Below, piece by piece: positions 682-59,076 of a DNA stretch of 64,000 nt. Position 1 is the first letter of the stretch; each line of letters begins with the position of its first letter. The position numbers and the translations under genes are program-made. The stretch covers positions 77 through 64,076 of the forward strand of contig WAKO01000003.1 in NCBI GenBank assembly GCA_015523325.1. Reading direction: 5' to 3'. Source of the stretch: Candidatus Micrarchaeota archaeon. Its GTDB lineage: Archaea; Micrarchaeota; Micrarchaeia; Anstonellales; J096. The notes beneath the pieces were generated by a model that had not been told where the DNA came from, ran no database searches, and saw nothing but the letters and a program-made list of their open reading frames with translations.

Positions 682-721
682 TTGCTCCAAAAACATAACT
701 TAGTGTCTCTAACTTCGGGAA

Positions 722-867
722 CCTTGGAAGACCTCTCTGGAGGGTCTGGGAGTTGGCCCCGTGAAGAAGGCTTAGAGAAGCCTTAGCTCTGGGAACCTCA
801 GAAAGACCTTTCAGGAGGGTCCACGGGGGGCAAGGCCCCGTGAAGGAAGGTTCAGAGAGGGTTCTTG
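722..867 (+). repeat. GC-rich conserved module, 1.5 tandem copies (partial copy 722-775, full copy 776-867), immediately 5-prime of tRNA-Leu(GAG). Positions 776-896 are identical to 5600-5720.
   Basis: A 121-nt block (776-896) is exactly identical to 5600-5720. About 55% GC in a ~30% GC genome. It contains the perfect hairpin CACGGGG-GGCAAGG-CCCCGTG. The partial upstream copy has the GGCCCCGTGAAG core. Confidence 0.8.
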
Positions 868-951
868 GCAGGGGTCGCCCAGTGGTCAACGGCGCCACCT
901 TGAGGGGGTGGTCCCTTAGTGGGTTCGTGGGTTCGAATCCCACCCCCTGCA
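868..951 (+). tRNA. tRNA-Leu (anticodon GAG), type II with long variable arm, no intron
   Basis: Acceptor stem GCAGGGG/CCCCTGC with discriminator A. 3-bp D-stem. Anticodon stem CCACC/GGTGG with loop TTGAGGG. Variable arm CCC-TTAGT-GGG. T-arm GTGGG-TTCGAAT-CCCAC. CCA is not encoded. Confidence 0.8.
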
Positions 952-1040: not shown

Positions 1041-1460
1041 ATGGAGCTAAATCAAACAACCTTGATTATAGGAGTTGTAGCTCTTTTGATTATAGGTTTC
1101 TTTATCTTTTCTCAAGCCACAACTCCTATGCAAGAGCAAATGAATGCAATGGAACAAGAAATGGAAGAGATGATGGATGGAGAGGTTAGAGTTATTAATG
1201 TTGATGGAAGTGAGTTTAGATTTAATCCAAGCACTATTAGAGTAACAAAAGGGGAAAGAGTCAGAGTTGTGTTTAGAAATGTTGGAACTTTGCCACATGA
1301 CTTTGTTATTGAGGGAACAAATATAAGGACTAGGATAATATCTCCTGGAGAAACAGATGCAGTAGAGTTTATAGCTGATAGGACTGGGGAGCTTACATTC
1401 TATTGTTCTGTTGGAAATCACAGGGCAAATGGAATGGAAGGAGACTTAGTTATTGAATAA
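1041..1460 (+). CDS. Membrane-anchored cupredoxin-like (type-1 copper) protein
   Basis: N-terminal transmembrane helix followed by a cupredoxin fold. Candidate copper ligands are His (PHDF), and Cys-x3-His-x4-Met (YCSVGNHRANGM). Confidence 0.65.
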   Translation: MELNQTTLIIGVVALLIIGFFIFSQATTPMQEQMNAMEQEMEEMMDGEVRVINVDGSEFRFNPSTIRVTKGERVRVVFRNVGTLPHDFVIEGTNIRTRIISPGETDAVEFIADRTGELTFYCSVGNHRANGMEGDLVIE

Positions 1461-1461
1461 A

Positions 1462-1500
1462 CTTTGTTCTTTTTCTTTTTTGTTTTTTTAGTTTTTTTCT
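1462..1500 (+). terminator. T-rich tract (archaeal oligo-T terminator candidate) after the cupredoxin gene
   Basis: ttctttttcttttttgtttttttagtttttttc lies directly after the stop codon. Confidence 0.35.
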
Positions 1501-1632
1501 AGTAAAAATTAAGCTTATTTTTAAGATTAAATTTTCTGAAATTAATTTCATTTTTGCTTCATATTTTCTTAGAAATATTTTTCAAATCTATTTCTCTTCA
1601 ACTTTTAAAAGCTATTACAGCGCTCCCCAATC

Positions 1633-2103
1633 ATGGTAGGAAATATTAAGGTTTTGCTAGGATTGGCTTTGTTGCTATTATTGGTTGGTTGCACAAGTGT
1701 TGGAGAGGATTATCCAAACTTAAAGAAGTACTTGAACGGGAGGGAAGTTATTCTTTATAAGAGCAATTTCTGTGGATGTTGTGAGGCATATGCTTCCTAT
1801 TTAGAGGAGAATGGAATAAGAGTAAAGGTTGTTTCAATGGAAAACTTAGAGGAATTAAAAAATAGGATAGGTATTCCTATGACTTATTGGAGTTGCCATA
1901 CTGTTGATTTTGGAGATTTTATTGTGGAAGGGCATGTACCTTTAAGAGCTATTGAAATAGCCTTAAGGGAAAACATTGATTTTGATGTAATAGCATTGCC
2001 TGGAATGCCTGCTGGTTCTCCTGGAATGGGAGGAGTTAAACAAGGAAAGTTTGAAATATCCTTACTAAAAAATGGAGAGGCAGTTGATAATATTTTGATT
2101 TAA
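1633..2103 (+). CDS. DUF411 / CopG-like copper-binding lipoprotein
   Basis: Lipobox-like LLVGC signal and the CxCC motif (FCGCCEAY) typical of DUF411 proteins from copper-resistance loci. A conserved His/Met region follows (HVP, GMPAGSPGM). Confidence 0.6.
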   Translation: MVGNIKVLLGLALLLLLVGCTSVGEDYPNLKKYLNGREVILYKSNFCGCCEAYASYLEENGIRVKVVSMENLEELKNRIGIPMTYWSCHTVDFGDFIVEGHVPLRAIEIALRENIDFDVIALPGMPAGSPGMGGVKQGKFEISLLKNGEAVDNILI

Positions 2104-2155
2104 TCTTATTGGTCTTTGCTTTTTTGGAGTTTGACTAAAAAATGGAGGTGAGCAT

Positions 2156-2533
2156 GTGAAAGGTAATTTAGATTTAAGGAGTTTGGACTTAAAGAGCTTT
2201 ATTGGAGGATTTTTGGTTGCTCTTCTTGTTTTTGGAGCATTCTTTTTAGCAAAACCCCAGCAAGAGGTTTCAGTAGTTTCAACAACTAGTTATTTGGAGA
2301 TTAGGGATGCATTAAAAGCAAAGCTTATGGAAGAGGGAAAGTATAGGTGTTGTATAAAAGAGCCTTGTAGTTATTGCTTGGAGGAAGGAGGTTGTGATTG
2401 CATAGACAAAATAATGGAAGGAAGAGCTCCTTGTGGAGAATGCATTGGGGAAATTTTGGAAGGAAATGCAAACCCTTATCTTTCAGATGAACAAATCTCA
2501 AGAGCTCTCTCAGAAGTTAAGGAAGAGATGTGA
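2156..2533 (+). CDS. TM-anchored cysteine-rich protein (9 Cys in ~50 aa), function unknown
   Basis: GTG start preceded by GGAGGTGA. N-terminal TM helix. Motif CCIKEPCSYCLEEGGCDCIDK...PCGEC. Confidence 0.5.
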   Translation: MKGNLDLRSLDLKSFIGGFLVALLVFGAFFLAKPQQEVSVVSTTSYLEIRDALKAKLMEEGKYRCCIKEPCSYCLEEGGCDCIDKIMEGRAPCGECIGEILEGNANPYLSDEQISRALSEVKEEM

Positions 2534-2574
2534 TTTTTTTCCCTTTTCCTTTCTTTTTGTTTTATTTTTTAACC

Positions 2575-3060
2575 CTATTTTTTCATATTTAGCTTTAAAA
2601 CAACCGCATTTGTCATTCCTCTCCTTTTCCTCTCAATAATATCTTTTGATTCTAGCTTATCCAGAATCCTTGTTATTTTCACCCTACTAAACCCAGTTTC
2701 CTTAACCAACTCACTTTGCAGCATAATTCCTTCATTTTTTAGGAGCAACTCTAGGATTAGCTTTTCCTCTCCTTTAAACATTTTTAGCAACTTTTCAGGT
2801 TTTGCTTCTTGCTTTTTTCCTTCATTGTCAAAGAATAATTGCAGGAGTGAAGCTACTATTATTAAAAGAGAAAGGGTTACTCCAACATAAGCTTCTATTG
2901 GATAATAATCTGAGTGGGGGCAATAGCCCAAAGCTTCTATACACTTATTATCATCAACCTCCTTATATTTTAAGCTCATGTATATTACAATTATTAACAA
3001 TAGGAGAGCTGCAAAAACATTTACTAAAGCTAGTGCTTTCTTTTTTCCTATCATTTTCAT
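2575..3060 (-). CDS. Membrane-associated winged-helix (MarR/ArsR-like) transcriptional regulator
   Basis: Two N-terminal TM segments followed by a wHTH (SELVKETGFSRVKITRILDKLESKDIIERK). Transcribed divergently from the KaiC-like operon. Confidence 0.55.
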   Translation of the reverse strand: MKMIGKKKALALVNVFAALLLLIIVIYMSLKYKEVDDNKCIEALGYCPHSDYYPIEAYVGVTLSLLIIVASLLQLFFDNEGKKQEAKPEKLLKMFKGEEKLILELLLKNEGIMLQSELVKETGFSRVKITRILDKLESKDIIERKRRGMTNAVVLKLNMKK

Positions 3061-3080
3061 CTCAATTAACCACTGTTATC

Positions 3081-3090
3081 TATTTAAAGT
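3081..3090 (+). promoter_or_regulatory. TATA-like box (TATTTAAAGT) ~25 nt upstream of the ATG at 3110
   Basis: AT-rich TATA-like element at the canonical distance upstream of the first in-frame ATG of the 3110-3628 ORF. Confidence 0.35.
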
Positions 3091-3109
3091 TAATACTCCT
3101 TATTTGTTT

Positions 3110-3628
3110 ATGAGTGATGAAGCTATTGAGAAAATAAAGCAAAAGAAAAAAGAGATAATAGAGGAAGGAGGAGTTTTTGCTAGGCTCTATTTCCAGCTTT
3201 TTGGAAAGGAGAAGGAGGCTTTGCTAAACCTTGCAAAAGGATTTTCAGCGGCTTTGGTTAAAGCAAAAGGAGTTGAGATTGGAGCAACCGAGATTGCTGA
3301 AGTTGAAAAATTAGAGGATGGATATTTTTCTACTTATTTGATTGCACATCTTGTGTTTTCTTCCCCAAAAGACTTATTTGAGCTTGTTGTTGATACACAT
3401 CCTTTCTCTATTGAGGTTGTTGAACCAGAGGAGCTAACCCTAAACATTGGAAAAATGAATGAAATATTACATAGCCTCTCTTCCTATTCCTTTGAGCTTA
3501 AGAGAGCTATTCTTGAAGCAAATCCAGAAAAAAGGCAATTAATGAAAAGAATTGCAGCCGAAAGAGTTAGGCTAGGAGAAAAGCTTGGAAAAAAGGAAGA
3601 AAGCTCAAAAAAGGAGGAGCAAAAATGA
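3110..3628 (+). CDS. Hypothetical protein (172 aa), overlaps and is co-transcribed with the downstream KaiC-like ATPase
   Basis: The ORF track extends to 2978, but that stretch overlaps the opposite-strand regulator gene. The internal Met at 3110 has a TATA box upstream. The stop overlaps the next start (ATGA). Confidence 0.45.
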   Translation: MSDEAIEKIKQKKKEIIEEGGVFARLYFQLFGKEKEALLNLAKGFSAALVKAKGVEIGATEIAEVEKLEDGYFSTYLIAHLVFSSPKDLFELVVDTHPFSIEVVEPEELTLNIGKMNEILHSLSSYSFELKRAILEANPEKRQLMKRIAAERVRLGEKLGKKEESSKKEEQK

Positions 3629-4311
3629 TAGGTAATGGTATTATAAAAACTTCTATTCCTGGATTTGATGAGATTTTAGGGGGAGGAATTCCGGTTGGAT
3701 CAATAATTTACATTTCTGGCTCTCCAGGAACAGGTAAATCAATACTTTCTACTCAATTTCTTATAGGAGGAATAAATAGAGGAGAGGTTGGGCTCTATTT
3801 AACAATGGAAGAGCCTAGGGAAAAGTTTGTTTCCCATATGGAAAGAGTTGGTTGGAATATTAGGGCTTATGAAGATAGTAATCAAATGATTATAATTGAT
3901 TATCCTCCTCATGAAGTTGATCAGTTAACCTCTCCTTCCAATCCTTTACTTGAGATAATTAAAGATTATAATGTTTCAAGGGTTGTGATAGATTCAATTT
4001 TGCCTTTAGCTATATCCTTTGATACTGATTATTTGAGAAAAAGAGCGTTCTTCCAATTGATTTCAAATATAAGTGAGTGGGAAACAACAACTTTTATTGT
4101 AGGAGAGGAAACATCCTTTAATCCTTCCAATGGAATCCCTGTTCTTAAGTATGGTTTTGAAACAATAGCAGATGGTTGGATACATATGTATTATGTTAGA
4201 AAGAGAATGGAAAGGAAGAGGTATATTGAAGTTATAAAGCTTAAAGGAATGAACCACTCTACAAGGCTTCATGAGTTTACTGTTTCCAAAGGAATAAGTA
4301 TAAAACCTTAG
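3625..4311 (+). CDS. Single-domain KaiC/RadA-like (RecA superfamily) ATPase
   Basis: Walker A GSPGTGKS. KaiC-like N-terminus IPGFDEILGGGIP. ~228 aa, as in archaeal ArlH/KaiC-like single-domain proteins. Confidence 0.75.
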   Translation: MIGNGIIKTSIPGFDEILGGGIPVGSIIYISGSPGTGKSILSTQFLIGGINRGEVGLYLTMEEPREKFVSHMERVGWNIRAYEDSNQMIIIDYPPHEVDQLTSPSNPLLEIIKDYNVSRVVIDSILPLAISFDTDYLRKRAFFQLISNISEWETTTFIVGEETSFNPSNGIPVLKYGFETIADGWIHMYYVRKRMERKRYIEVIKLKGMNHSTRLHEFTVSKGISIKP

Positions 4312-4356
4312 TTGTTAGCTCTACCAATTGTTTCTTAAATTTCTTAAAGTTACAAG

Positions 4357-5484
4357 TTATTCAAAGCTCTTTTCCCACATTTCCCTAGCTAGCTTTCCTT
4401 CATACATCATTTTCCTTATTTTTTTCTCCACTACTTTCTTTTTTCTTCTATGCTCTTTCAAGTAATTATTTATTTTCTCCACCAACAACATCTTTATTTC
4501 TCCACTTAGCATTTCTCCTTTTGTGTAGCTTCTCGCTATTTCTTCCAACCTTTTGTCATCTTCTTCAAAAAATATACTTAGCCATTGGTAAGGAATGTCA
4601 ACGTTTATGTCTCCCCCATATTTTCTATGCTCTTCTATTGTTGGCTTTCCTCCAGAGAAAGCATATTTCATTATTTTTCTCTTTACTTCCTCTTCTCCAT
4701 CATTTAACCATATAGCTGTTCTTGGGTTTGAAGAGCTCATCTTTCCTTCCAATCCTTGGAGAGGAGGGAAAAACTTACTATGTATTGCAGCAGCTTTATA
4801 ATATCCTAAGCTTTCAGCAATATCCCTTTGTATTCTCCAATATGGGTCTTGGTCTATTCCTGCAGGAATTAAAGCTCTCTTTTTTTCAAAAAAAGTAGGA
4901 ATTATTTGATAAATGGGGTAGAAGCTAAGCCCTACATTTGTCTCATTAGTAAAGCCAAAAACAGCTTTTGCTGTGGAAAAAGTTACTTTTCTTGCTGCTT
5001 TCAGCATTAGCTTATAAACTCTCCCTATGTACTCACTATCTCTAAAAATGAATGTTTTATCCTCATCAAAGCCGATGCTAGCAATATCTTCAATATTTCT
5101 TTTAGCATATTTGTCTACTTCCTCCCAACTTAATCTTTTTTGTAGGAACTTCTCATCATCGCTTATTGCTATGTAGAGGTTTACTCCAAACCTTTTTTGA
5201 AACCATTTAACCAACTCAAAGCTTAAAATATGACCTAAATGCATATCTCCAGTAGGCCCTCTTCCAGTATAAAGGAAGAATCCCTTTCCTTTCTCAAAAT
5301 CTTCTAGCACTTTATCCAAATCTCTGTGTGAGAAGAAAAATCCTCTCCTTATTAATACATGAAGCTCTCCTGCAAGCTTTTCCATTCTCTTCAACAATTC
5401 CTCTCCAATTTTTTTTGTTCCAAACTCTTTTATTAGCTTATTATAATCTATTTTTCCTTCTACTTCCCAAGGGGTTACTCTCAT
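4357..5484 (-). CDS. trpS: Tryptophanyl-tRNA synthetase (archaeal/eukaryotic type)
   Basis: Class I HIGH-region TGDMHLGH and KMSKS-like KMSSS. Overall archaeal TrpRS architecture. 375 aa. Confidence 0.9.
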   Translation of the reverse strand: MRVTPWEVEGKIDYNKLIKEFGTKKIGEELLKRMEKLAGELHVLIRRGFFFSHRDLDKVLEDFEKGKGFFLYTGRGPTGDMHLGHILSFELVKWFQKRFGVNLYIAISDDEKFLQKRLSWEEVDKYAKRNIEDIASIGFDEDKTFIFRDSEYIGRVYKLMLKAARKVTFSTAKAVFGFTNETNVGLSFYPIYQIIPTFFEKKRALIPAGIDQDPYWRIQRDIAESLGYYKAAAIHSKFFPPLQGLEGKMSSSNPRTAIWLNDGEEEVKRKIMKYAFSGGKPTIEEHRKYGGDINVDIPYQWLSIFFEEDDKRLEEIARSYTKGEMLSGEIKMLLVEKINNYLKEHRRKKKVVEKKIRKMMYEGKLAREMWEKSFE

Positions 5485-5564
5485 AGCCCTCTACCTATCT
5501 CTTTTTTCCCTTAAAACCTTTTAAATTGTCTCCCTAAACCCTTTCTTCTCAAAGCTTCCTTTTG

Positions 5565-5573
5565 TTTTAAAAA
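5565..5573 (+). promoter_or_regulatory. TATA-like box (TTTTAAAAA) 27 nt upstream of the start of the GC-rich leader module of tRNA-Leu(CAA)
   Basis: Lies in the divergent intergenic region between trpS and tRNA-Leu. The spacing implies that transcription starts at the module boundary (~5600). Confidence 0.35.
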
Positions 5574-5599
5574 CCCTTTCACCACTAAAACTTTACAAT

Positions 5600-5691
5600 A
5601 GAAGCCTTAGCTCTGGGAACCTCAGAAAGACCTTTCAGGAGGGTCCACGGGGGGCAAGGCCCCGTGAAGGAAGGTTCAGAGAGGGTTCTTG
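5600..5691 (+). repeat. GC-rich conserved module (second copy) immediately 5-prime of tRNA-Leu(CAA)
   Basis: Identical to 776-867. Same hairpin CACGGGG-GGCAAGG-CCCCGTG. Confidence 0.8.
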
Positions 5692-5787
5692 GCAGGGGTC
5701 GCCCAGTGGTCAACGGCGCCGGACTCAAGATAGGATAAGAAATCCGGTCCCTTAGTGGGTTCGTGGGTTCGAATCCCACCCCCTGCA
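5692..5787 (+). tRNA. tRNA-Leu (anticodon CAA) with a ~12-nt anticodon-loop intron
   Basis: Same body as the 868-951 tRNA (D-arm, variable arm, T-arm and acceptor identical). Anticodon stem CCGGA...TCCGG. Loop CTCAAGA after removal of the insert (A)TAGGATAAGAA at the canonical 37/38 position. Confidence 0.7.
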
Positions 5788-5798
5788 ACTTTGGTGGA

Positions 5799-6758
5799 AA
5801 AATGAAAAAGCTGGTTGCTTTGCTTTCTTTAGCTTTCTTGTTGGTGTTGTATTATTTTGCAATATCCTTCTCCTCCTCATTGGAGGAGGTAGGGGTTTTG
5901 CTAGCTTATATAGCAGGCCTTACTATGATTGTTTTGCCTTGCACATTTCCTTTGGTTTTCGTAATAGTTCCTTTGACTTTGGGAAAAGAGTATAAGAAAG
6001 GAATTATTATGGCTATTTTGTTTGGTTTAGGATTAACAATAACTATAAGTATTTATGGAATCCTAACTGCAAAAGTTGGAGAGTTTCTTGGTTTAGATGA
6101 GTTTACAAGGGTTATGTTCTCTTTTGCAGGAATATTGTCTTATGCTTTTGGATTTTCTATGCTCGGTTTGGTTCCCTCTAACCTAATACCCTCTTTGAAT
6201 GTAGGGACTCCTTCCTTTATTTTGAAACAAAAGGATTACATAAGGGCTTTTTTAATGGGGCTATTTTTAGGAAATGCAGGAGTGGGTTGCCCTAACCCAG
6301 CCTTTTATGTTTTACTAACTTATATAGCCTCAACAGGAAGTGTTGTGGAAGGGTTTTTCCTTGGATTTATTCATGGTTTGGGAAGAGCAACTCCCCTCAT
6401 AATATTAGCGGTTTTAGGAGTTTTAGGGTATAATGCTTTAGACTTTTTAAAGAACAATAGGGAGAAGATAGAATCTATAACAGGCTGGATTCTTATTTTA
6501 TTTGGAGCTTTTGTATTAAATTATGGTTTATTTGGAATGTCCTTTTGGGAGGAAAGCTTTATCCATCAAGGCTGGAATGATTTTGTTAGAGATGTTTTTC
6601 CTTCTATAGCTGAGGAAGAAGGGCATGAGGTATTTGAGGGAGCAATTGAAACAGATACTTTAACCCCTTGGATAATAATAGCTATAATGTTTCTGATACC
6701 ATTAATTATAAGAGGAATTAAAGGAATTAAAGCCGAGAGTAAAGAAAAAGAACCGTAA
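5799..6758 (+). CDS. Polytopic membrane protein, CcdA/DsbD-like thiol-disulfide transporter candidate
   Basis: RBS GGTGG before the ATG at 5799. The ORF-track start at 5763 lies inside the tRNA. Multiple TM helices with membrane-embedded Cys (LPCTFP, GVGCPNP). Confidence 0.45.
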   Translation, partial: KMKKLVALLSLAFLLVLYYFAISFSSSLEEVGVLLAYIAGLTMIVLPCTFPLVFVIVPLTLGKEYKKGIIMAILFGLGLTITISIYGILTAKVGEFLGLDEFTRVMFSFAGILSYAFGFSMLGLVPSNLIPSLNVGTPSFILKQKDYIRAFLMGLFLGNAGVGCPNPAFYVLLTYIASTGSVVEGFFLGFIHGLGRATPLIILAVLGVLGYNALDFLKNNREKIESITGWILILFGAFVLNYGLFGMSFWEESFIHQGWNDFVRDVFPSIAEEEGHEVFEGAIETDTLTPWIIIAIMFLIPLIIRGIKGIKAESKEKEP

Positions 6759-6852
6759 TTTTTTAATATTAGCTCTACATACTTTTTCTTTGAAACTAGT
6801 TTCTCCAAATTCTTTAAGTAGGGATGTGGAGTTTTTTGTAGGAGGTGTAAAG

Positions 6853-7065
6853 ATGGAAATGAAAAGCGCATTGCTTTTAGGTGTGGTAGTGATATTGTTT
6901 GTGGTATCCATAGTTCAAACAATGCAACTTATGGAGTTAAAAGATAAAGTGAATAGCGGAGTTGCTTTATCTCAACAATCTCCTTCAGTTCCTCAAAACA
7001 CAGGAAACCCAGGAACACTAAGCCAAAACATAAATAACTTACCAACAATGGTTGGAGGTTGTTAG
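6853..7065 (+). CDS. Small TM protein (70 aa) ending in LPTMVGGC, a mini-paralog of the 7194-8570 protein
   Basis: Start context GGAGGTGTAAAGATGGA is identical to that of the next gene. One TM helix, a QLME motif, an S/Q/N-rich linker, and a C-terminal LPTMVGGC-stop. Confidence 0.45.
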   Translation: MEMKSALLLGVVVILFVVSIVQTMQLMELKDKVNSGVALSQQSPSVPQNTGNPGTLSQNINNLPTMVGGC

Positions 7066-7193
7066 AGTTATAAACTAAGAGTTATATTAGCTAATCAATT
7101 GGTTTTGATTTTTTATTCGTACTTACCTTTAAGATAAGCTAGGCCTTTATGATAGGTAGAGATTATTGGTGTTATTTAAATGGAGGTGTAAAG

Positions 7194-8570
7194 ATGGATA
7201 AAGGAAGTATTTTCCTTACAGGATTAGTTATGTTTTTCTTTTTAACATTTATCCCTAACTTTATTGATCCTTATTCCACTCAACTAACTTTTAGTTATTA
7301 TATGGTTAATACTCCATTTTATGTTTGGGGAGGAATAGCAACTCTTATTATTTCCGCTCTTGCTTTTGCTGGAACTGCTTATTATTTGAGAGCTTACCTT
7401 CCAACATTTTTTGGAGGTAATAGGGCTAAGATTTATTTAGCCATTTCAGCAGTGCTTGCTCTTGCATTTTATTACTTCACATTTGCTACAACATCCTTGA
7501 ACTTGTTTGCATACATTGAGATGAATGGCTTTCTCTACACATTCTTTTCAATGCTTCTTAATGCATTTATAATAGCTCTCTCCTCCATCCTTTTCATTGA
7601 TTTGGGAAATTTCTTGAGAAACTTAACAAAGGCAGAAACCTCTACATCTCTAGGAGGGTCTTTAGCTTCTCTTTTCTCCTTAGGTTGTCCTACCTGTGGA
7701 TCAATTATTTATTCAATGCTTGGAATAGTTGGAGGGCTTACAATATTGCCTTTAAAAGGATTAGAAGTAAAGTTACTTTCTTTAGCTTTGTTAATGTATG
7801 GAACTTATTTACTTTATAAGAGATTTTTCCCTGATGTAAAGATTAACCTTGTCCCTTCAGCTAACACCGCCTTAATTGCTTTGCTGGTCTTGGCCTTACC
7901 TATATTTGCTTATGGCCAATTCCAGCTAATGGAGATCTCCTCTTCTTTGGGGGGATCTCAAGTAGGAGGAAGCTCTTCTCCTGCTTTAGGACCTGCAAGC
8001 TCCTTTTCTTCAGCAAATTTGGAAGGAGTGGATGTTTATTCTGTTTCCTCCACTCCTGAAGCTTTAATTACAGTATTCCCAGAGCTTAAAAATGCTAAAA
8101 CAGAGCAAGACGTTATAGGCATTCTTTATCCGAGAGGAGCTCCAACCTATTCACAAGTTTTAGGAGGAATAAACTATGATGATCCGGTTAACTCAATGGA
8201 GTACTTATCCAGGTATTACTTTGCAGTAAGGGAAGATATAAGGAAAAACAAACCAGAGGTTTGGAACAGATATATTAATTTAGCTGCAGCTCCAAGAGGG
8301 ATTAGCTGTGAATTCTGTTGTGGAGTTGGGCCACAAGGAATAGATTCTCAAGGAAACCTAAGGTGTGGCTGTAAACACAATGTAGCATTACAAGGATTAG
8401 TTTTGGGATTAATGTCAAATACTGATTTGAGTGATGCAGAAATACTTAGGGAAGTTATGAAATGGAAAACTCTATTCTTCCCACGAAACATGGTTGCTTT
8501 AGGAGTTCAACTAGCTGGAAATGATGCCTCCTCCCTCTCCTCTCTTCCAGGAATGGTTGGAGGTTGTTAA
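7194..8570 (+). CDS. Polytopic membrane protein with intramembrane CPTC motif and a Cys-rich extracytoplasmic domain, ending in LPGMVGGC
   Basis: About 6 TM helices. GCPTCG lies in a TM segment. The C-terminal domain carries CEFCCGVG...CGCKH. The C-terminus is SLPGMVGGC-stop. The ORF-track start at 7149 is replaced by the ATG at 7194, which has an RBS. Confidence 0.6.
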   Translation: MDKGSIFLTGLVMFFFLTFIPNFIDPYSTQLTFSYYMVNTPFYVWGGIATLIISALAFAGTAYYLRAYLPTFFGGNRAKIYLAISAVLALAFYYFTFATTSLNLFAYIEMNGFLYTFFSMLLNAFIIALSSILFIDLGNFLRNLTKAETSTSLGGSLASLFSLGCPTCGSIIYSMLGIVGGLTILPLKGLEVKLLSLALLMYGTYLLYKRFFPDVKINLVPSANTALIALLVLALPIFAYGQFQLMEISSSLGGSQVGGSSSPALGPASSFSSANLEGVDVYSVSSTPEALITVFPELKNAKTEQDVIGILYPRGAPTYSQVLGGINYDDPVNSMEYLSRYYFAVREDIRKNKPEVWNRYINLAAAPRGISCEFCCGVGPQGIDSQGNLRCGCKHNVALQGLVLGLMSNTDLSDAEILREVMKWKTLFFPRNMVALGVQLAGNDASSLSSLPGMVGGC

Positions 8571-8685
8571 TTGAATTAACGCAAAAAACAAAAAATTCAG
8601 CGGTTGATTTAAATACTTTCTTATGTTTTTTCTTATACTTTTGTTTTTTAGGTTTTAGAGGTTTTTTAGAAAGGAGGTTGATTAA

Positions 8686-9837
8686 ATGGAACTTAGTAAT
8701 GAGAAAATAGATATTATTGTAGCTGTTTTAGTTGCTCTTACTTTTTTAGTTGTAATATTTAATTTTTATACTTCTCTAACCTTAAGCGAACAAATTGATA
8801 AGAAAATTGAGGAACTTTCTAATGTTAATGTTCCTAAAATAAATATTTATTTGATTAAAGAGTCTTCTTGTAATGAATGTTTGGATTTGCAAGGAGTTGC
8901 AAGCTCTCTTGCTTCTTCATTTCCTGGAGAAGCTAATTTAGAGGTTTTGAATAGAGAGGAGGGAAATTCATTTATAAGGAAGTATTTGATAAATAGGCTT
9001 CCTGCAATAGTTATTGAAGGAGATATCTCCTCCTTTAACGTTCCTCCCCAGCTAAACTTTGTTGAAAAAAATGGAGCTCTTGTTTTTGAAGGAGCAGTTC
9101 CTTACTTCTCATTAGAGGATAATTCTGTTAAGGGAGTTGTTGAGTTCATATTAATAAATCATAAAGGATGTGAGGTTTGTAAGGATATGAAAGTTGTTTA
9201 TGATTCCCTAACTTCAACAGGTATAGTTGGAAATCTTAAAGAGCTAGAACATCCGTCTGAAGAAGCAAATGAATTTGCTAATAATTATTCAATAACAAAA
9301 TATCCTACAATGCTTATAAGTAAGGATATTGATGAATATGGAATTCCAATAGGAGATTCAAATTTGGTTAGAACTTATGATAATTATTATGTTTTAGATC
9401 CCATTCCTCCTTACTTTGATTTAGAAGAAAAGAGGATAAGAGGAGAGTTGGAAGTAATTTACTTATTCTCACAAGACTGTGAGGATTGCATAAATATAAG
9501 TACTTTCTCAAGCGCTTTGAGGGATATCGGGCTTTACTTAAAGAATGAAACAGAGGTTGAAATAAACTCTCCTCAAGGAGAGGAGTTAATTTCAATTTAT
9601 AACATAACAAAGGTTCCAACGTTTATTCTAAAAGGAGATATAGAGGCTTATCCTGGTTTAAGAGGAAGTTTAGAAGAGATAGGATATTTTGTTAATGAGA
9701 GTTTCGTTTTCTCTGATTTGGAAAGAGTAGGTAAATATATAGCGGTTGGAGAAGAGCTTGAGAATGAAAGTGTTAATACAGGGAATGAAACTCTAGATGA
9801 AGGTTTGGTGAATGAAACAATGAATGAGACAGTATAA
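8686..9837 (+). CDS. Membrane-anchored protein with three thioredoxin-fold domains, each carrying a CxxC motif
   Basis: N-terminal TM helix. CxxC motifs CNEC, CEVC and CEDC. Trx-like cis-Pro contexts (ITKYPTMLI, ITKVPTFIL). RBS AAGGAGG. Confidence 0.65.
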   Translation: MELSNEKIDIIVAVLVALTFLVVIFNFYTSLTLSEQIDKKIEELSNVNVPKINIYLIKESSCNECLDLQGVASSLASSFPGEANLEVLNREEGNSFIRKYLINRLPAIVIEGDISSFNVPPQLNFVEKNGALVFEGAVPYFSLEDNSVKGVVEFILINHKGCEVCKDMKVVYDSLTSTGIVGNLKELEHPSEEANEFANNYSITKYPTMLISKDIDEYGIPIGDSNLVRTYDNYYVLDPIPPYFDLEEKRIRGELEVIYLFSQDCEDCINISTFSSALRDIGLYLKNETEVEINSPQGEELISIYNITKVPTFILKGDIEAYPGLRGSLEEIGYFVNESFVFSDLERVGKYIAVGEELENESVNTGNETLDEGLVNETMNETV

Positions 9838-9839
9838 AT

Positions 9840-10292
9840 TTGGTTGAGGATAGTATGGGAAAGCTAAAAGAGCCCTCTTTTCCAACAAAAAAAGTGGTTA
9901 TTGCTTTTGTTATTGCTCTTTTGTTTCTTTTTGTGCTATCACTTTTGTTCAAGAAGAACCTCCCTCCCACTGATATAAGAGGGCATATAGAATCCTATCC
10001 TCCTTCTAGGATAATGGAAGAGCCAATAAGTGTTGCTGTTCATAAGCATATTTTAGAGCATACTCCTTCTGGGAGGAGAGGAGTAATAATAAATTATAAC
10101 TGTGTTAAGTTTAGTTGTGAAGAGGGATTGCTAGAAAAGCTTGAGGAAATAGCACTTTCTGATGATAGGACTTATTTAATACCAAACAATGAAATGGATG
10201 CAAAGATAGTTGTTTCAGCAATAGGAAATCAATTGGTTTTGGATGAGTTTGATGAAGCAAAGATAAGAGAATTCATTCAACAAGTTCCTTAA
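9840..10292 (+). CDS. TM-anchored hypothetical protein (~150 aa) with CxxxxC
   Basis: N-terminal TM helix. NCVKFSCEEG. Last gene of the redox/copper island. Confidence 0.4.
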   Translation: MVEDSMGKLKEPSFPTKKVVIAFVIALLFLFVLSLLFKKNLPPTDIRGHIESYPPSRIMEEPISVAVHKHILEHTPSGRRGVIINYNCVKFSCEEGLLEKLEEIALSDDRTYLIPNNEMDAKIVVSAIGNQLVLDEFDEAKIREFIQQVP

Positions 10293-11002: not shown

Positions 11003-12199
11003 CTAATTCATATTAAGGGTTTTTAAGCTCTTCAAGTCTTCTATAAGCTTTGAGGAAGCATCTTTCCCTTCTTCCTTATATTTCTCATAAAGCTCTACCA
11101 ATAGAGATAGGTAGTTCTTTTTTATTGGATTTCCAAATACTTCTCTTAATTCTTTTATTTTATCAAAGAACAAGCTAACTCTTTCCTTCCCTCCTTCCTC
11201 ATTTATTTGGTGGATTAAGAAAATTAATTCTTTATTCTCCCTATTTTTTAGCTTTGTTTTAGCCAAGTAGCTTAATAATTCAATTCCTTCTTCTCTAAGG
11301 CTTAGAATTAATGAGTGTATATTTTCCATTATTGGATAGGGAATTATTTCTTTAATTGCATATTCTCCTTTCATCATTGTTGGAATAAAAGCGGTATTAT
11401 AATCCAGTATTATTTTTCCAACTTTGTTGGGAGGAATTAGTTTTTTTGTTGAGTTTGGAAAGGTAATTTTTATTGTTGTGAGCTCAACCAAAAAACTTAG
11501 GCTTTCTAAAAAATAGGAGGAGGTTGTTTTTGAGCTAAGCATATCTTTTGAAAGAAGAAGGACCCTTATTATTTCATTTCCTTCAAAAATCCCTTCATCA
11601 GCTATTTCTTTTATTAGGTTTAAATGTTGGGGTTTGAAGTATTTAGCACTAACAAGTCCTGTTAAGTCTAAATATAGGCTTTTTGTCTCTATATTTTGTT
11701 TATTTTCTAGACTTTTTGCTTGAATAATTAGGTCTTTTATTTCCTCTTTCTTTAATTCTTCTCTCTTTTGAAGCAGGGCTTTTAGGAATTTTAGCTTTTG
11801 TTCTTGATCCTCCTCCTTAGAAAGCCCTATATTACTGAAGAAATAGCTAATTATTTCTTTTTCTTCTTTACTCAACTCTTTTTTTTCTTTTAGTAGTTCT
11901 TCGTAGATTAAGGACAACATCCTATAATACCTTTCTTTATAAGTTTCTCTAAGTTTGCTTATAAGAGGAATTTTTTGAAATTCTCCTTTTATGTTTACTT
12001 CTTCTATTTTTATCCCTATTAGCATATTTTCGTATTTCTCATAAGTTGGGAAGCTAAAGTTATGATTTATCTTAATTGGACCTTCCTCCATTATATTTTC
12101 TTTTATATTTTTCTTAAGTTTATCTTTATTCTCTCCGTTTTTCAAATCATTTTCTAGCTTGCTATGTTTTTTCCTTTTTTCTCTCATTATACCCACCAA
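11003..12199 (-). CDS. Hypothetical K/E-rich protein (398 aa)
   Basis: Long ORF with coding-like composition and predicted coiled-coil/helical repeats. No recognisable motif. Confidence 0.45.
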   Translation of the reverse strand: MVGIMREKRKKHSKLENDLKNGENKDKLKKNIKENIMEEGPIKINHNFSFPTYEKYENMLIGIKIEEVNIKGEFQKIPLISKLRETYKERYYRMLSLIYEELLKEKKELSKEEKEIISYFFSNIGLSKEEDQEQKLKFLKALLQKREELKKEEIKDLIIQAKSLENKQNIETKSLYLDLTGLVSAKYFKPQHLNLIKEIADEGIFEGNEIIRVLLLSKDMLSSKTTSSYFLESLSFLVELTTIKITFPNSTKKLIPPNKVGKIILDYNTAFIPTMMKGEYAIKEIIPYPIMENIHSLILSLREEGIELLSYLAKTKLKNRENKELIFLIHQINEEGGKERVSLFFDKIKELREVFGNPIKKNYLSLLVELYEKYKEEGKDASSKLIEDLKSLKTLNMN

Positions 12200-12219
12200 T
12201 TCTCTAGCTATTCTGATTT

Positions 12220-12504
12220 CTAAAATTTCTTTTCAATCTCCCTTAGCTTTTCTTCAAGCTCTTCAAGAGAAACCTTTCTTTTGTATGACTCTTTTTCTGC
12301 CCATTTAAAAAGAGCTTTTACTTCTCTTTCCAACATTTTAATCTCTTCACAACTTAGTATTTCATTTGCTTTTTCTCTTTTTTTAGCTTGATTTTTAGAA
12401 GGGATTGTTTTAATTATTCCTTCTTCAAGAATAGAGGAATAAATTCTTTTTGCTCTCCAGGCATCCTTTTCTTCTTTTATTTTCCTGTAGCTATAACTTT
12501 TCAT
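12220..12504 (-). CDS. Hypothetical K/E-rich small protein (94 aa)
   Basis: ORF immediately upstream, on the same strand, of the 398-aa ORF. Confidence 0.35.
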   Translation of the reverse strand: MKSYSYRKIKEEKDAWRAKRIYSSILEEGIIKTIPSKNQAKKREKANEILSCEEIKMLEREVKALFKWAEKESYKRKVSLEELEEKLREIEKKF

Positions 12505-12663
12505 AATATTAATTTAATGTGAATATTTGTGTTTAAAAATGTTTGTTTTCTTTTCTTAACCACTCTTTTCAACCCTCCCATCCCTTACCTTTTAATTGGT
12601 TTTTATAGTAATAATTTTGTGTGTGTTTTAAGAAGAGAGTCTCCATCACAAGAAAAAAACTTA

Positions 12664-58975: not shown

Positions 58976-59076
58976 TGGGCCCGGTGGGATTTGAACCCAC
59001 GACCTACGGCTATCTTAGAATCCATTAGAGCGGGTCTTATAAGACCGTCGCTCTAACCTGGCTGAGCTACGGGCCC
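58976..59076 (-). tRNA. tRNA-Ile with predicted UAU anticodon and a ~26-nt anticodon-loop intron
   Basis: Reverse complement reads GGGCCCGTAGCTCAGCCAGGTTAGAGC-G-ACGGT-CTTATA[A-GACCCGCTCTAATGGATTCTAAGAT]A-GCCGT-AGGTC-GTGGGTTCAAATCCCAC-CGGGCCC-A. The archaeal tRNA-Ile-like acceptor/D-arm GGGCCCGTAGCTCAG is present. Spliced loop CTTATAA. Confidence 0.65.

What the first reader, a model, noticed from the sequence alone, without database searches (positions are those of the whole stretch)
1041..10292. Extracytoplasmic copper / thiol-disulfide island
The island contains a cupredoxin, a DUF411/CopG-like CxCC lipoprotein, a TM-anchored 9-Cys protein, a divergent membrane-bound wHTH regulator, a CcdA-like Cys-containing transporter, the MVGGC pair with an intramembrane CPTC, a protein with three CxxC thioredoxin domains, and a TM-anchored CxxxxC protein. 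Almost every product has a signal sequence or anchor. Such a concentration of envelope redox and copper-handling functions is unexpected in a small-genome AT-rich archaeon. The island is interrupted only by the KaiC operon, trpS and tRNA-Leu.
Basis: partly seen in the sequence, partly recalled or inferred. Interest (0 to 1): 0.55.

Follow-up and report, generated by a model that had tools for sequence, protein, structure and literature searches.

The report
DPANN envelope cysteine-arm, thioredoxin and copper module
The island is real, but it is not an oddity of this genome: it is a gene module conserved across DPANN archaea, built around two uncharacterised membrane proteins that each end in a cysteine on a flexible tail and sit beside a thioredoxin relay and copper-handling genes.

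Summary
Small corrections: the "9-Cys" protein has 8 Cys, and CcdA most likely starts at 5802.

The island is not foreign. Codon usage and GC3 match the rest of the window.

The two "MVGGC" proteins are the core of a conserved operon. Relatives of the 185-aa C-terminal domain ("Cdom") occur in 169 species-level genomes, and the best 80 are all DPANN-type MAGs.
- 80 of 85 loci encode an adjacent small single-Cys "tail" protein ending LPxMVGGC.
- Among 39 loci with full flanks, 35 have the triple thioredoxin, 28 have CcdA, and 25 have a copper marker.

Cdom has no Pfam, NCBIfam or PDB relative. Its confident model (pLDDT 93.6) matches no solved fold.

Best reading (inferred): CcdA and the triple thioredoxin keep the terminal cysteines reduced. 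These cysteines act as mobile carriers at the cell surface, most likely for Cu(I). The closest analogues are the Scs system and SoxYZ/SoxS/SoxV. The function is untested.

The parts
1041..1460 (+). TM-anchored cupredoxin (139 aa), possibly CopI-like
   Evidence: PF13473 E=2.4e-11 and PF00127 E=1.5e-9, both above cutoff. The best NCBIfam hit is CopI, but it is partial and below cutoff. Ligand pattern H86, C122, H127, M132. A cupredoxin lies within 8 kb of Cdom in 28/85 loci and is fused to Trx3 in L007, L014 and L070.
1633..2103 (+). DUF411/CopG-like lipoprotein (156 aa) with CGCC at 1771-1782
   Evidence: PF04214 E=2.3e-16. CGCC and SCHT are conserved in 25 homologues. It lies near Cdom in 25/85 loci and sits between Cdom and tail in 9 loci.
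2156..2533 (+). TM-anchored 8-Cys protein (125 aa): CC-x4-C-x2-C-x5-C-x-C-x10-C-x2-C
   Evidence: No Pfam, NCBIfam or PDB hit. Seven homologues, with all 8 Cys invariant. It follows DUF411 directly in 5 of the 6 loci that have it (WIN, L008, L021, L062, L067); in L070 other genes lie between them. It is unrelated to Cdom (hhalign probability 1%).
2575..3060 (-). Membrane-bound wHTH regulator (161 aa). Two TM helices flank a loop carrying C40 and C47 (2920-2943). The DUF7343/MarR domain is cytoplasmic.
   Evidence: PF24034 E=1.3e-12. Present in 20/85 loci, usually at the head of the long-form operon. The loop Cys pair is conserved at 70% or more.
5802..6758 (+). CcdA-type thiol-disulfide transporter (DsbD_TM). 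TM cysteines lie in LPC (5934-5942) and GCPNP (6285-6299).
   Evidence: PF02683 E=1.8e-10 and PF13386 E=1.5e-7. Both Cys are conserved at 90% or more in 53 homologues. Present in 52/85 loci, and in 28/39 loci with full flanks.
6790..7065 (+). 'Tail' protein: TM helix, VQTMQL (6913-6930), a Ser/Gly/Thr-rich linker, then LPTMVGGC-stop (7039-7062). The likely start is the ATG at 6853. It has a single Cys.
   Evidence: No family hit. An equivalent small ORF ending [LP]x[MQ]VGGC is present in 80/85 loci. It is on the same strand as Cdom in 81/81 pairs, with a median gap of 43 nt and one Cys in 78/82 ORFs. The linker has a median length of 38 residues and is 49% S/G/A/T.
7149..8012 (+). N-terminal module of the 473-aa protein, about 7 TM helices (likely start ATG 7194). 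It carries EMNG (7518-7529), intramembrane GCPTCG (7683-7700), and a last TM helix ending in GQFQL (7914-7928).
   Evidence: Helices come from hydropathy and the AF2 model. G179, C180, C183 and G184 are invariant in 24 long-form homologues. No Pfam or PDB hit. The module is present in 14/85 loci and stands alone next to a cupredoxin or a Cu-ATPase in L032, L065 and L084.
8013..8570 (+). Cdom: an extracytoplasmic, mostly helical 185-aa domain. It has a Cys knuckle, CEFCC (8307-8321) and CGCKH (8364-8378), and a flexible C-terminal arm ending LPGMVGGC-stop (8544-8567).
   Evidence: 103 homologues. C387, C391, C406, C408 and H410 are invariant; C390 and the tail residues P467 to C473 are 90% or more conserved. 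The family has 291 representatives at 50% identity. The AF2 model has pLDDT 93.6 and pTM 0.91, falling to about 70 in the last 20 residues. The best Foldseek PDB hit has E=1.3 and TM no higher than 0.21. No Pfam, NCBIfam or PDB sequence hit.
8686..9837 (+). Trx3: a TM-anchored protein with three thioredoxin units. CNEC is at 8869-8880, CEVC at 9169-9180 and CEDC at 9478-9489.
   Evidence: PF00085 E=1.4e-8; TIGR02187 PDO-like E=2.4e-11, below cutoff. There are exactly three CxxC motifs in 62/63 homologues, each followed by a conserved Pro. Present in 63/85 loci, and in 35/39 loci with full flanks.
9840..10292 (+). TM-anchored DUF3105 protein with CVKFSC (10101-10118). It is a peripheral member.
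   Evidence: PF11303 E=5e-7, 30.3 bits against a cutoff of 25. It co-occurs in only 2/85 loci.

Best explanation
The window carries both halves of a module that is typical of DPANN archaea and protects or services the outer face of the cell membrane.

Shown:
- The conserved core is the gene set Cdom, tail, Trx3 and CcdA.
- Cdom and tail are membrane-anchored proteins. Each ends in an invariant ...LPx(M/Q)VGGC-COOH on a low-complexity or low-confidence segment.
- Tail is essentially the Cdom protein without its globular domain. It has a similar anchor with a polar Q-x-x-Q-L/I end, and the same terminal octapeptide.
- Trx3 carries three conserved CxxC thioredoxin units.
- CcdA keeps both transmembrane cysteines.
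- Copper genes are strongly enriched next to the core.

Inferred mechanism:
- CcdA carries reducing equivalents from the cytoplasm to Trx3.
- Trx3 keeps the terminal arm cysteines, and the Cys5-His knuckle of Cdom, in the thiol state, and resolves wrong mixed disulfides.
- The arms act as mobile thiol carriers that pick up a thiophilic cargo at the cell surface and hand it to the Cys knuckle or to neighbouring proteins.
- The most likely cargo is Cu(I), either exported by a CopA-type ATPase or arriving from outside.
- Cu(I) would then be sequestered in the knuckle or passed to the DUF411/CopG-like protein and the cupredoxin for oxidation to Cu(II).
- The same relay would repair copper-catalysed disulfides.
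- The membrane wHTH protein, with its outward-facing Cys pair, is the likely sensor.
- In the window's long form, Cdom is fused to a 7-TM module with an intramembrane GCPxCG motif, which may be a thiol or Cu(I) conduit.
For: Core synteny:
- 85 loci were analysed.
- Tail is present in 80, Trx3 in 63 and CcdA in 52.
- In the 39 loci with at least 5 kb on both sides, the counts are 37, 35 and 28.

Arm features:
- The C-terminal Cys is kept in nearly all complete family members. Among 150 representatives, 71 end in MVGGC and 24 in QVGGC.
- Tail has a single Cys in 78/82 ORFs, so it can only do one-thiol chemistry.
- The M or Q state of the arm is the same in both partners in 81/81 pairs: 78 M/M, 3 Q/Q, none mixed.
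- The arm region has lower model confidence, about 70, against more than 90 for the domain.

Location outside the cell:
- Short forms have a K/R-rich N-terminal tail (18% K+R), then a single TM helix, then the domain.
- There is no twin-arginine motif, so the protein is probably exported unfolded. That favours metal ions or disulfides over flavin or Fe-S cofactors. This step rests on established knowledge of Sec and Tat export.

Copper link:
- At least one of cupredoxin, DUF411, Cu-ATPase or the Met/Gly-rich protein lies within 8 kb in 25/39 full-flank loci.
- DUF411 sits between Cdom and tail in L003, L011, L012, L023, L025, L026, L027 and L030, and directly follows Cdom in L016, where the contig ends before a tail gene.
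- Cupredoxin is fused to Trx3 in three loci.
- The cytoplasmic N-tails of short forms average 12.6% His, and 42 of 76 have at least 10%.
- L003 continues into a rhodanese and a HMA/P-type ATPase, and is preceded by peroxiredoxins, ferritin and Ni-SOD.

Precedents:
- Scs links a DsbD-like reductase, Cu(I)-binding thioredoxin-like proteins and copper stress (PMC10907172).
- SoxYZ carries its substrate on a cysteine arm and is kept active by the thioredoxin-like SoxS. SoxV is a CcdA orthologue that reduces the periplasmic thioredoxin SoxW (PMC5336275; PMC10451225 and the references it cites).
Against: - No biochemical data exist for any member of the Cdom or tail families.
- Copper markers are absent from 14 of the 39 full-flank loci, whereas a Trx3, CcdA or DsbA-like gene is present in 38 of 39. 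The redox link is therefore tighter than the copper link.
- The arm Met is replaced by Gln in 24 of the 150 listed representatives, so Met cannot be an obligatory Cu(I) ligand.
- The His-rich tails lie on the cytoplasmic side, not next to the Cys domain.
- I could not read model coordinates, so I do not know whether the arm Cys approaches the knuckle.
- The knuckle could simply hold a structural zinc ion or disulfides.
- The gene sets near the core may reflect a general stress regulon rather than one pathway.
Confidence: 0.45

Rival explanations
1. The module is oxidative protein-folding machinery. Cdom, with its arm and the tail protein, is a new disulfide-generating or disulfide-shuttling catalyst that plays the role of DsbB, VKOR, Erv or Ero1 in organisms without quinones. 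Trx3 is a PDI-like carrier or isomerase. CcdA supplies the isomerase branch, as DsbD does for DsbC. The cupredoxin is the electron acceptor.
For: - Trx3 has three active thioredoxin units, like PDI.
- A DsbA-like protein (PF13462 E=6e-26) lies inside the operon in 5 loci.
- One family member (P0246) is fused to an FKBP prolyl isomerase, which is a folding catalyst.
- Cupredoxin-Trx3 fusions would link a one-electron acceptor to thiol chemistry.
- Flexible shuttle cysteines, including a CGC motif, are known from Erv2 (from memory).
Against: - The tail protein has only one Cys, whereas known shuttle elements in disulfide-generating catalysts are Cys pairs.
- There is no fold or sequence match to Erv, Ero1, DsbB or VKOR.
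- There is no obvious cofactor or terminal acceptor, because a Sec-exported domain cannot easily carry FAD.
- DsbA-like genes are rare here (5/85).
- The FKBP fusion is a single case.
Confidence: 0.22
2. The module is a sulfur-carrier system. The terminal Cys of the arms carries sulfane sulfur (persulfide, polysulfide or thiosulfonate) covalently, as SoxY does. Cdom is the enzyme that loads or unloads it. Trx3 and CcdA reactivate the arms, as SoxS/SoxW and SoxV do.
For: - The architecture is parallel: a Gly-flanked Cys at a flexible C-terminus, together with a thioredoxin and a CcdA (PMC5336275, PMC10451225).
- A rhodanese gene lies in 6/85 loci, inside the long-form operon.
- A few family members end in GGCG or GGCGV-like variants.
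Against: - Rhodanese is present in only 7% of loci.
- No Sox, Dsr or other sulfur-oxidation or sulfur-reduction genes were seen in any neighbourhood.
- Copper genes are far more frequent.
- Cdom shows no similarity to SoxY, SoxZ or any other Sox protein.
Confidence: 0.1
3. LPx(M/Q)VGGC is a processing signal rather than a catalytic arm. It could be a C-terminal sorting or lipidation motif, or the small ORF could be a precursor peptide that Cdom modifies.
For: - The octapeptide is as conserved as a sorting signal and resembles LPxTG superficially.
- The small ORF, with its variable middle and conserved end, sits next to a larger conserved protein, which is reminiscent of a peptide plus a modifying enzyme.
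Against: - The motif sits at the extreme C-terminus, with no following TM helix or basic tail. All known sortase, archaeosortase, exosortase and rhombosortase signals have these (established knowledge).
- Only two ORFs in the 64 kb window carry it, and in other genomes the carriers are always the same adjacent pair.
- No candidate transpeptidase, prenyltransferase or protease recurs in the neighbourhoods.
- The small protein has a TM anchor, which is unusual for a precursor peptide.
Confidence: 0.07
4. The island is a recently acquired foreign block, or a chance juxtaposition of unrelated envelope genes, as the first reader implied by calling it unexpected.
For: Both halves lie directly downstream of tRNA-Leu genes that share an identical 95-nt upstream segment. 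tRNA genes are common integration sites.
Against: - Codon usage and GC3 cannot be told apart from the rest of the window.
- GC content is within the window's range.
- The same gene sets recur across at least eight DPANN lineages.
- No integrase or other mobile-element gene was seen between 1 and 14000.
Confidence: 0.03

Closest known systems
Scs (suppressor of copper sensitivity) system, ScsABCD of Salmonella and relatives
   Same: It is an envelope module that links copper stress to thiol-disulfide control. A DsbD-type membrane reductase feeds thioredoxin-like proteins, some of them membrane-bound, and some of them bind Cu(I). A small membrane protein of unclear role is also part of it (PMC10907172).
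   Different: There are no orthologues here. The reductase is a minimal CcdA, not ScsB with its periplasmic domains. The thioredoxin partner is a single protein with three units. The central clients, Cdom and tail, have no counterpart in Scs. The host is an archaeon without a periplasm bounded by an outer membrane.
SoxYZ carrier with SoxS/SoxW thioredoxins and SoxV (a CcdA orthologue)
   Same: A reactive cysteine sits in a Gly-flanked peptide at a flexible C-terminus and acts as a carrier. A periplasmic thioredoxin-like protein removes wrong mixed disulfides. A CcdA homologue supplies the electrons (PMC5336275, PMC10451225).
   Different: SoxY has a different fold and ends in GGCGG (from memory). 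It is soluble, pairs with SoxZ, and sits among SoxAX, SoxB and SoxCD. None of these is present here. Cdom and tail are membrane-anchored, and their neighbourhoods are rich in copper genes rather than sulfur genes.
CcdA-dependent reductive pathways (CcdA with ResA, CcmG or TlpA; DsbD with DsbC)
   Same: A six-TM CcdA with two essential cysteines passes electrons to extracytoplasmic thioredoxin-fold proteins. Both Cys and the flanking Pro are conserved here.
   Different: The known clients are apocytochrome c, Sco/CoxB or misfolded proteins. No cytochrome c maturation genes were seen near the module. The acceptor is an unusual triple thioredoxin.
Copper resistance proteins CopG (DUF411), CopI-type cupredoxin and CopA
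   Same: The window's DUF411 protein has the CxCC motif, and its cupredoxin has type-1 copper ligands. CopA-type ATPases lie in 15/85 related loci.
   Different: In bacteria these genes sit in cop or pco operons with CopB, CopC, CopD or multicopper oxidases. Here they are embedded in a thioredoxin/CcdA operon alongside unknown families. The match to the CopI equivalog model is partial and far below its cutoff (41 against 280 bits).
C-terminal redox arms of DsrC and of high-Mr thioredoxin reductase (GCUG)
   Same: A terminal or penultimate reactive Cys (or Sec) sits on a mobile C-terminal extension that shuttles between active sites (from memory).
   Different: Those arms carry two redox-active residues and are cytoplasmic. 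The arms here carry one Cys and face outward.

Membership tests
Cupredoxin / plastocyanin-azurin family (PF13473, PF00127) | Profile score above the curated cutoff | tested here: met
   44 bits against 27, and 38.6 against 21.2.
Cupredoxin / plastocyanin-azurin family (PF13473, PF00127) | Type-1 copper ligands: one His, then Cys, His and Met near the C-terminus | tested here: met
   H86, C122, H127 and M132. The Cys and Met columns are conserved in 32 homologues.
CopI copper-resistance cuproprotein (NF051440 equivalog) | Full-length match above the equivalog cutoff | tested here: not met
   41 bits against a cutoff of 280, and only residues 49-91 align. The protein is CopI-like at most.
DUF411 / CopG (PF04214) | Profile score above cutoff and a conserved CxCC motif | tested here: met
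   59.7 bits against 27. CGCC is 90% or more conserved in 25 homologues.
CcdA / DsbD transmembrane domain (PF02683) | Profile score above cutoff, and two transmembrane cysteines each next to a Pro | tested here: met
   41 bits against 27.1. LPC and GCPNP are present, and both Cys are 90% or more conserved in 53 homologues.
Thioredoxin fold (PF00085) | CxxC active site followed by a cis-Pro loop, and profile score above cutoff | tested here: met
   35.1 bits against 23.5. There are three CxxC motifs, each with a downstream conserved Pro, and exactly three CxxC in 62/63 homologues.
Archaeal protein disulfide oxidoreductase PDO (TIGR02187) | Equivalog score, and two thioredoxin units in about 230 aa | tested here: not met
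   43.4 bits against a cutoff of 185. The protein has three units plus a TM anchor.
DUF7343 / MarR-type wHTH | Profile score above cutoff | tested here: met
   47.8 bits against 27.6.
DUF3105 (PF11303) | Profile score above cutoff | tested here: met
   30.3 bits against 25.
Scs system | ScsB-type DsbD with N-terminal periplasmic domains, plus ScsC, ScsD and ScsA orthologues | tested here: not met
   Only a bare DsbD_TM domain is present. The NCBIfam DsbD hit is 35 bits against a cutoff of 330, and no Scs models were hit.
SoxY sulfur carrier | SoxY domain, and a SoxZ partner within a sox gene cluster | tested here: not met
   Cdom and tail hit no Pfam or NCBIfam family. No sox genes occur in the five neighbourhoods that carry Pfam-annotated gene calls (L001, L003-L006); the other 80 loci were screened only with the 17 family queries, which include no sox model.
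SoxY sulfur carrier | Reactive Cys in a Gly-flanked peptide at a flexible C-terminus | tested here: met
   The GGC-COOH end is invariant and has low model confidence. This is a resemblance in how it may work, not evidence of homology.
Sortase / archaeosortase-type C-terminal sorting signals | Signature motif followed by a hydrophobic helix and a basic tail | tested here: not met
   The stop codon follows the Cys directly in 80/85 loci.
Disulfide-generating catalysts (DsbB, VKOR, Erv/ALR, Ero1) | Sequence or fold similarity | tested here: not met
   There is no PDB sequence hit. The best Foldseek result is E=1.3 for the domain and E=0.14 for the full length, and all matches are unrelated proteins.
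Cdom family (proposed here) | About 185 aa, mostly helical, with C-x2-C-C ... C-x-C-x-H and a terminal [MQ]VGGC | tested here: met
   The window protein is a typical long-form member.
Copper binding by Cdom or tail | Measured metal content or affinity | not testable with these tools
   This requires purified protein.

The most novel reading that the evidence does not exclude
Cdom and tail define a new class of membrane-tethered 'swinging-arm cysteine' carrier, with a fold not seen in the PDB and confined to DPANN archaea. Together with a triple thioredoxin and CcdA, it forms the main extracytoplasmic thiol system of these ultra-small, quinone-less, host-dependent cells. It would stand in for the missing Dsb/VKOR machinery, or act as a surface copper and oxidant shield at the contact face with the host.
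Probability: 0.35. Interest if true: 0.8.

Novelty: new variant of a known kind. Interest (0 to 1): 0.6.

Why it matters
DPANN archaea have very small genomes and depend on contact with host cells, so genes they retain widely are likely to matter. This is a 4- to 10-gene envelope module present in at least 169 species-level genomes.

- Its two central proteins have no annotation, no detectable relatives and no known fold.
- Both carry an almost invariant terminal cysteine that points to covalent or metal-carrier chemistry.
- The module gives a concrete, testable entry point into several open questions about these organisms: how they manage disulfides, copper and oxidants at the cell surface without quinones, glutathione or classical Dsb proteins.
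- It also adds candidate families for Pfam-style curation: Cdom, tail, the 7-TM GCPxCG module, the 8-Cys protein, and the HCPLCT and CCKE proteins seen in related loci.

Tried and rejected
1. **Known families for the MVGGC proteins.** Pfam and NCBIfam scans of the whole proteins, and a Pfam scan of the separate halves (the latter at E up to 1), gave nothing. PDB profile searches gave only noise.
2. **Fold recognition.** The full-length model (pLDDT 83.8) and the domain model (pLDDT 93.6) were searched against the PDB with Foldseek. No hit had E below 0.1, and TM-scores were at most 0.29.
3. **Literature.** The string MVGGC appears in 6 papers, none relevant. A search for DPANN plus disulfide and thioredoxin found no description of this module.
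4. **Is the 8-Cys protein a relative of Cdom?** No: hhalign probability 1%.
5. **Horizontal transfer.** Rejected by codon usage and GC3.
6. **Recoding at the Cys knuckle.** Three representatives end exactly after the first knuckle Cys. Two are cut by contig ends. One (L087) has an in-frame TAA in place of the conserved Glu codon. A single case is most simply a pseudogene or a sequencing error.
7. **The GC-rich segment upstream of the tRNA-Leu genes.** There is no Rfam match, and its folding energy is not unusual (z = -1.16).
8. **Cys-Cys distances.** The model coordinates could not be read in the sandbox, so these were not measured.

Full report
**1. What is in the window**

- 1041-1460: a TM-anchored cupredoxin with type-1 copper ligands.
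- 1633-2103: a DUF411/CopG-like lipoprotein with CGCC.
- 2156-2533: a TM-anchored Cys-rich protein. It has 8 Cys, not 9.
- 2575-3060 (minus strand): a two-TM wHTH regulator.
- 3113-4311: an MJ0538-like gene plus KaiC.
- 4357-5484 (minus strand): TrpS.
- 5692-5787: an intron-containing tRNA, found by Rfam only.
- 5802-6758: CcdA.
- 6790-7065: a 91-aa ORF.
- 7149-8570: a 473-aa ORF.
- 8686-9837: a triple-CxxC thioredoxin protein.
- 9840-10292: a DUF3105 protein.

The 91-aa and 473-aa ORFs both end in MVGGC-stop. They are the only ORFs in the 64 kb window that do.

The window is part of a 270.7 kb metagenomic contig. GC is 30-37% throughout.

**2. The island is native**

The nine island genes do not differ from the other 48 long ORFs of the window in codon usage (p = 0.78) or GC3 (p = 0.31). 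No integrase or other mobile-element gene was seen between positions 1 and 14000.

**3. The MVGGC proteins define an unannotated family**

The 473-aa protein has 103 homologues, none with a Pfam domain over the shared region. There are two architectures.
- Long forms are about 450 aa: roughly 7 TM helices with an invariant intramembrane GCPxCG, followed by the C-terminal domain.
- Short forms are about 270 aa: a charged N-terminal tail, one TM helix, then the same domain.

All complete members end in LPGMVGGC or a near variant.

Within the C-terminal domain ("Cdom", window residues 289-473):
- C387, C391, C406, C408 and H410 are invariant.
- C390 and the terminal P-G-M-V-G-G-C are 90% or more conserved.

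A profile search of 1.84 billion representative proteins found 291 family members. Even distant ones (E about 1e-23) keep six Cys and a terminal [MQ]VGGC. Among the 150 listed, 71 end in MVGGC and 24 in QVGGC.

**4. No known fold**

- The AF2 model of the domain is confident: pLDDT 93.6 and pTM 0.91. It shows eight helices plus a short hairpin region that holds CEFCC and CGCxH. The second motif sits at the start of a helix.
- The last roughly 20 residues drop to a pLDDT of about 70.
- Foldseek against the PDB gives nothing better than E = 1.3 and TM 0.21.
- The full-length model gives only transporter noise.
- PDB sequence and profile searches are empty.
- The layout, a knuckle plus a helix start, resembles a treble-clef-type metal site. 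I could not inspect the coordinates, so this remains my inference.

**5. A conserved operon**

A scan of one genome per GTDB species found relatives in 169 genomes. The best 80 are all DPANN-type MAGs: Woese-, Pace-, Micr-, Aenigmat-, Iain-, Alti-, Nano- and Nanohalo-archaeota. Several are labelled 'uncultured Methanosarcinales' by NCBI.

I called ORFs in these 80 loci, four loci fetched by protein identity and the window. I then searched them with the window's proteins and four extra neighbours, using phmmer followed by hmmsearch.

Results for the tail protein:
- 80 of 85 loci encode a small ORF (55-134 aa) with this layout: TM helix, VQAxQL, S/G/T-rich linker, LPxNLQNLPx[MQ]VGGC.
- It is on the same strand as Cdom in 81/81 pairs and downstream in 70, with a median gap of 43 nt.
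- It has a single Cys in 78/82 ORFs.
- Its linker has a median length of 38 residues.

Results for the neighbours:

| Gene family | All 85 loci | 39 loci with at least 5 kb on both sides |
|---|---|---|
| tail | 80 | 37 |
| Trx3 | 63 | 35 |
| CcdA | 52 | 28 |
| cupredoxin | 28 | 14 |
| DUF411 | 25 | 13 |
| membrane wHTH | 20 | 12 |
| Cu-ATPase | 15 | 10 |
| any copper marker | 48 | 25 |
| any of Trx3, CcdA, DsbA-like | 71 | 38 |

- The usual gene order is Cdom, tail, Trx3, CcdA.
- The long-form order is: wHTH, HCPLCT-TM protein, (TM194), CCKE protein, 7TM-Cdom, DUF411, tail, Met/Gly-rich protein, Trx3, rhodanese, Cu-ATPase.
- The window combines elements of both. Like its nearest relative L007, it has tail upstream of Cdom.

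**6. Further features that bear on mechanism**

- Trx3 has exactly three CxxC motifs in 62/63 homologues, each with a conserved downstream Pro. The residues inside the CxxC are often acidic.
- CcdA keeps both Cys.
- The wHTH regulator keeps two Cys in the loop between its TM helices.
- The M or Q state of the arm is identical in Cdom and tail of the same locus in 81/81 pairs. This suggests a shared partner or concerted evolution. The three Q/Q loci may be related to each other.
- All three anchored proteins end their TM helix with a polar motif: FNQxQI in Cdom, VQAxQL in tail, and often FNSF in Trx3. This may mediate assembly; that is my inference.
- Short-form N-tails are K/R-rich (18%) and so probably cytoplasmic. 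They are also His-rich, with a mean of 12.6%.
- One family member is fused to an FKBP domain.

**7. Interpretation**

What is shown:
- The core module is conserved and lies outside the cell.
- Its known parts are a CcdA-thioredoxin electron path.
- Its unknown parts carry an invariant, terminal, Gly-flanked cysteine.

A single-Cys protein on a 38-residue flexible tether can only work as a carrier: as a metal ligand, in a mixed disulfide, or as a persulfide.

The nearest architectural precedent is SoxYZ with SoxS/SoxW and the CcdA orthologue SoxV (PMC5336275, PMC10451225). The nearest functional precedent for the gene company it keeps is the copper-induced Scs system (PMC10907172).

I favour Cu(I) as the cargo for three reasons: copper genes are interleaved with the core, cupredoxin is fused to Trx3, and the tails are His-rich. 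However, the redox link (38/39 loci) is tighter than the copper link (25/39). Oxidative folding and sulfur carriage therefore remain live alternatives. A sorting-signal reading is unlikely, because the motif is at the extreme C-terminus and only the same adjacent pair carries it.

**8. Verdict**

The claim that the island is unexpected or foreign is wrong.
- The interesting content is a pair of protein families that is wide across DPANN, uncharacterised and novel in fold, sitting at the heart of the island.
- The system-level logic is of a known kind: an envelope thiol relay linked to copper. I therefore rate it a new variant of a known kind, with moderate to high interest.

Noticed in passing
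window 712-951 and 5597-5787: Two tRNA-Leu genes are each preceded by an identical GC-rich segment of about 95 nt (774-867 = 5597-5691). A further degenerate copy of the roughly 70-nt unit lies upstream of the first gene (about 712-773). The first gene (868-951) has anticodon GAG. The second (5692-5787) probably has anticodon CAA plus an intron of about 12 nt. The two tRNAs differ only around the anticodon. There is no Rfam match and the folding z-score is -1.16. The motif occurs nowhere else in the window. Each copy sits directly upstream of one half of the island.
   Followed up: partly
window 5692-5787 and 58976-59076 (minus strand): Rfam finds two tRNAs that are longer than usual (96 and 101 nt) and that ARAGORN missed. 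They probably contain introns, which fits an archaeal genome.
   Followed up: no
window 3113-4311: An MJ0538-like gene (PF27325 in the precomputed annotation) overlaps the start of a single-domain KaiC-type ATPase by 4 nt. This is a conserved-looking pair of unknown role that is transcribed divergently from the membrane wHTH regulator.
   Followed up: no
window 11003-14058: Three consecutive ORFs (398 aa and 94 aa on the minus strand, 509 aa on the plus strand) have no Pfam hit above noise. The first two are Lys/Glu-rich and look like coiled coils.
   Followed up: no
L003 5019-5995, L004 874-1964 and 3061-3645, and 13, 9 and 7 other loci respectively: Three more unannotated families travel with the long-form operon but are absent from the window. 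One is a TM protein with an N-terminal HCPLCT motif. One is a soluble protein of about 165 aa ending in DCCKE(W). One is a TM protein of about 194 aa with CCVHH. None has a Pfam hit.
   Followed up: partly
L087 3530-3532 (WAPJ01000128.1; the same contig as L075): One Woesearchaeota Cdom gene has an in-frame TAA exactly where the near-invariant Glu of C-E-F-C-C lies (GAA to TAA). The reading frame continues intact afterwards (FCCGVGPQG...). Two other representatives that end at the same residue are simply cut by contig ends. This is probably a pseudogene or a sequencing error.
   Followed up: yes
P0246 (456 aa; a family representative, not in the window): An FKBP-type prolyl isomerase domain (PF00254, E=3.6e-12) is fused N-terminally to a Cdom that ends in NMVGGC. 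This is the only informative domain fusion found among ten long family members.
   Followed up: partly
L003 144-3294: Directly upstream of one long-form operon lies a stress cluster: VIT1 iron transporter, two peroxiredoxins, ferritin, and Ni-superoxide dismutase with its maturation peptidase. This suggests the module belongs to a wider oxidant and metal defence region in some genomes.
   Followed up: no
window 7149-7193: The first 15 codons of the 473-aa ORF (MIGRDYWCYLNGGVK) have no counterpart in the closest homologues, which start at MDK. The real start is probably the ATG at 7194. Likewise, the 91-aa ORF probably starts at 6853 and CcdA at 5802.
   Followed up: yes
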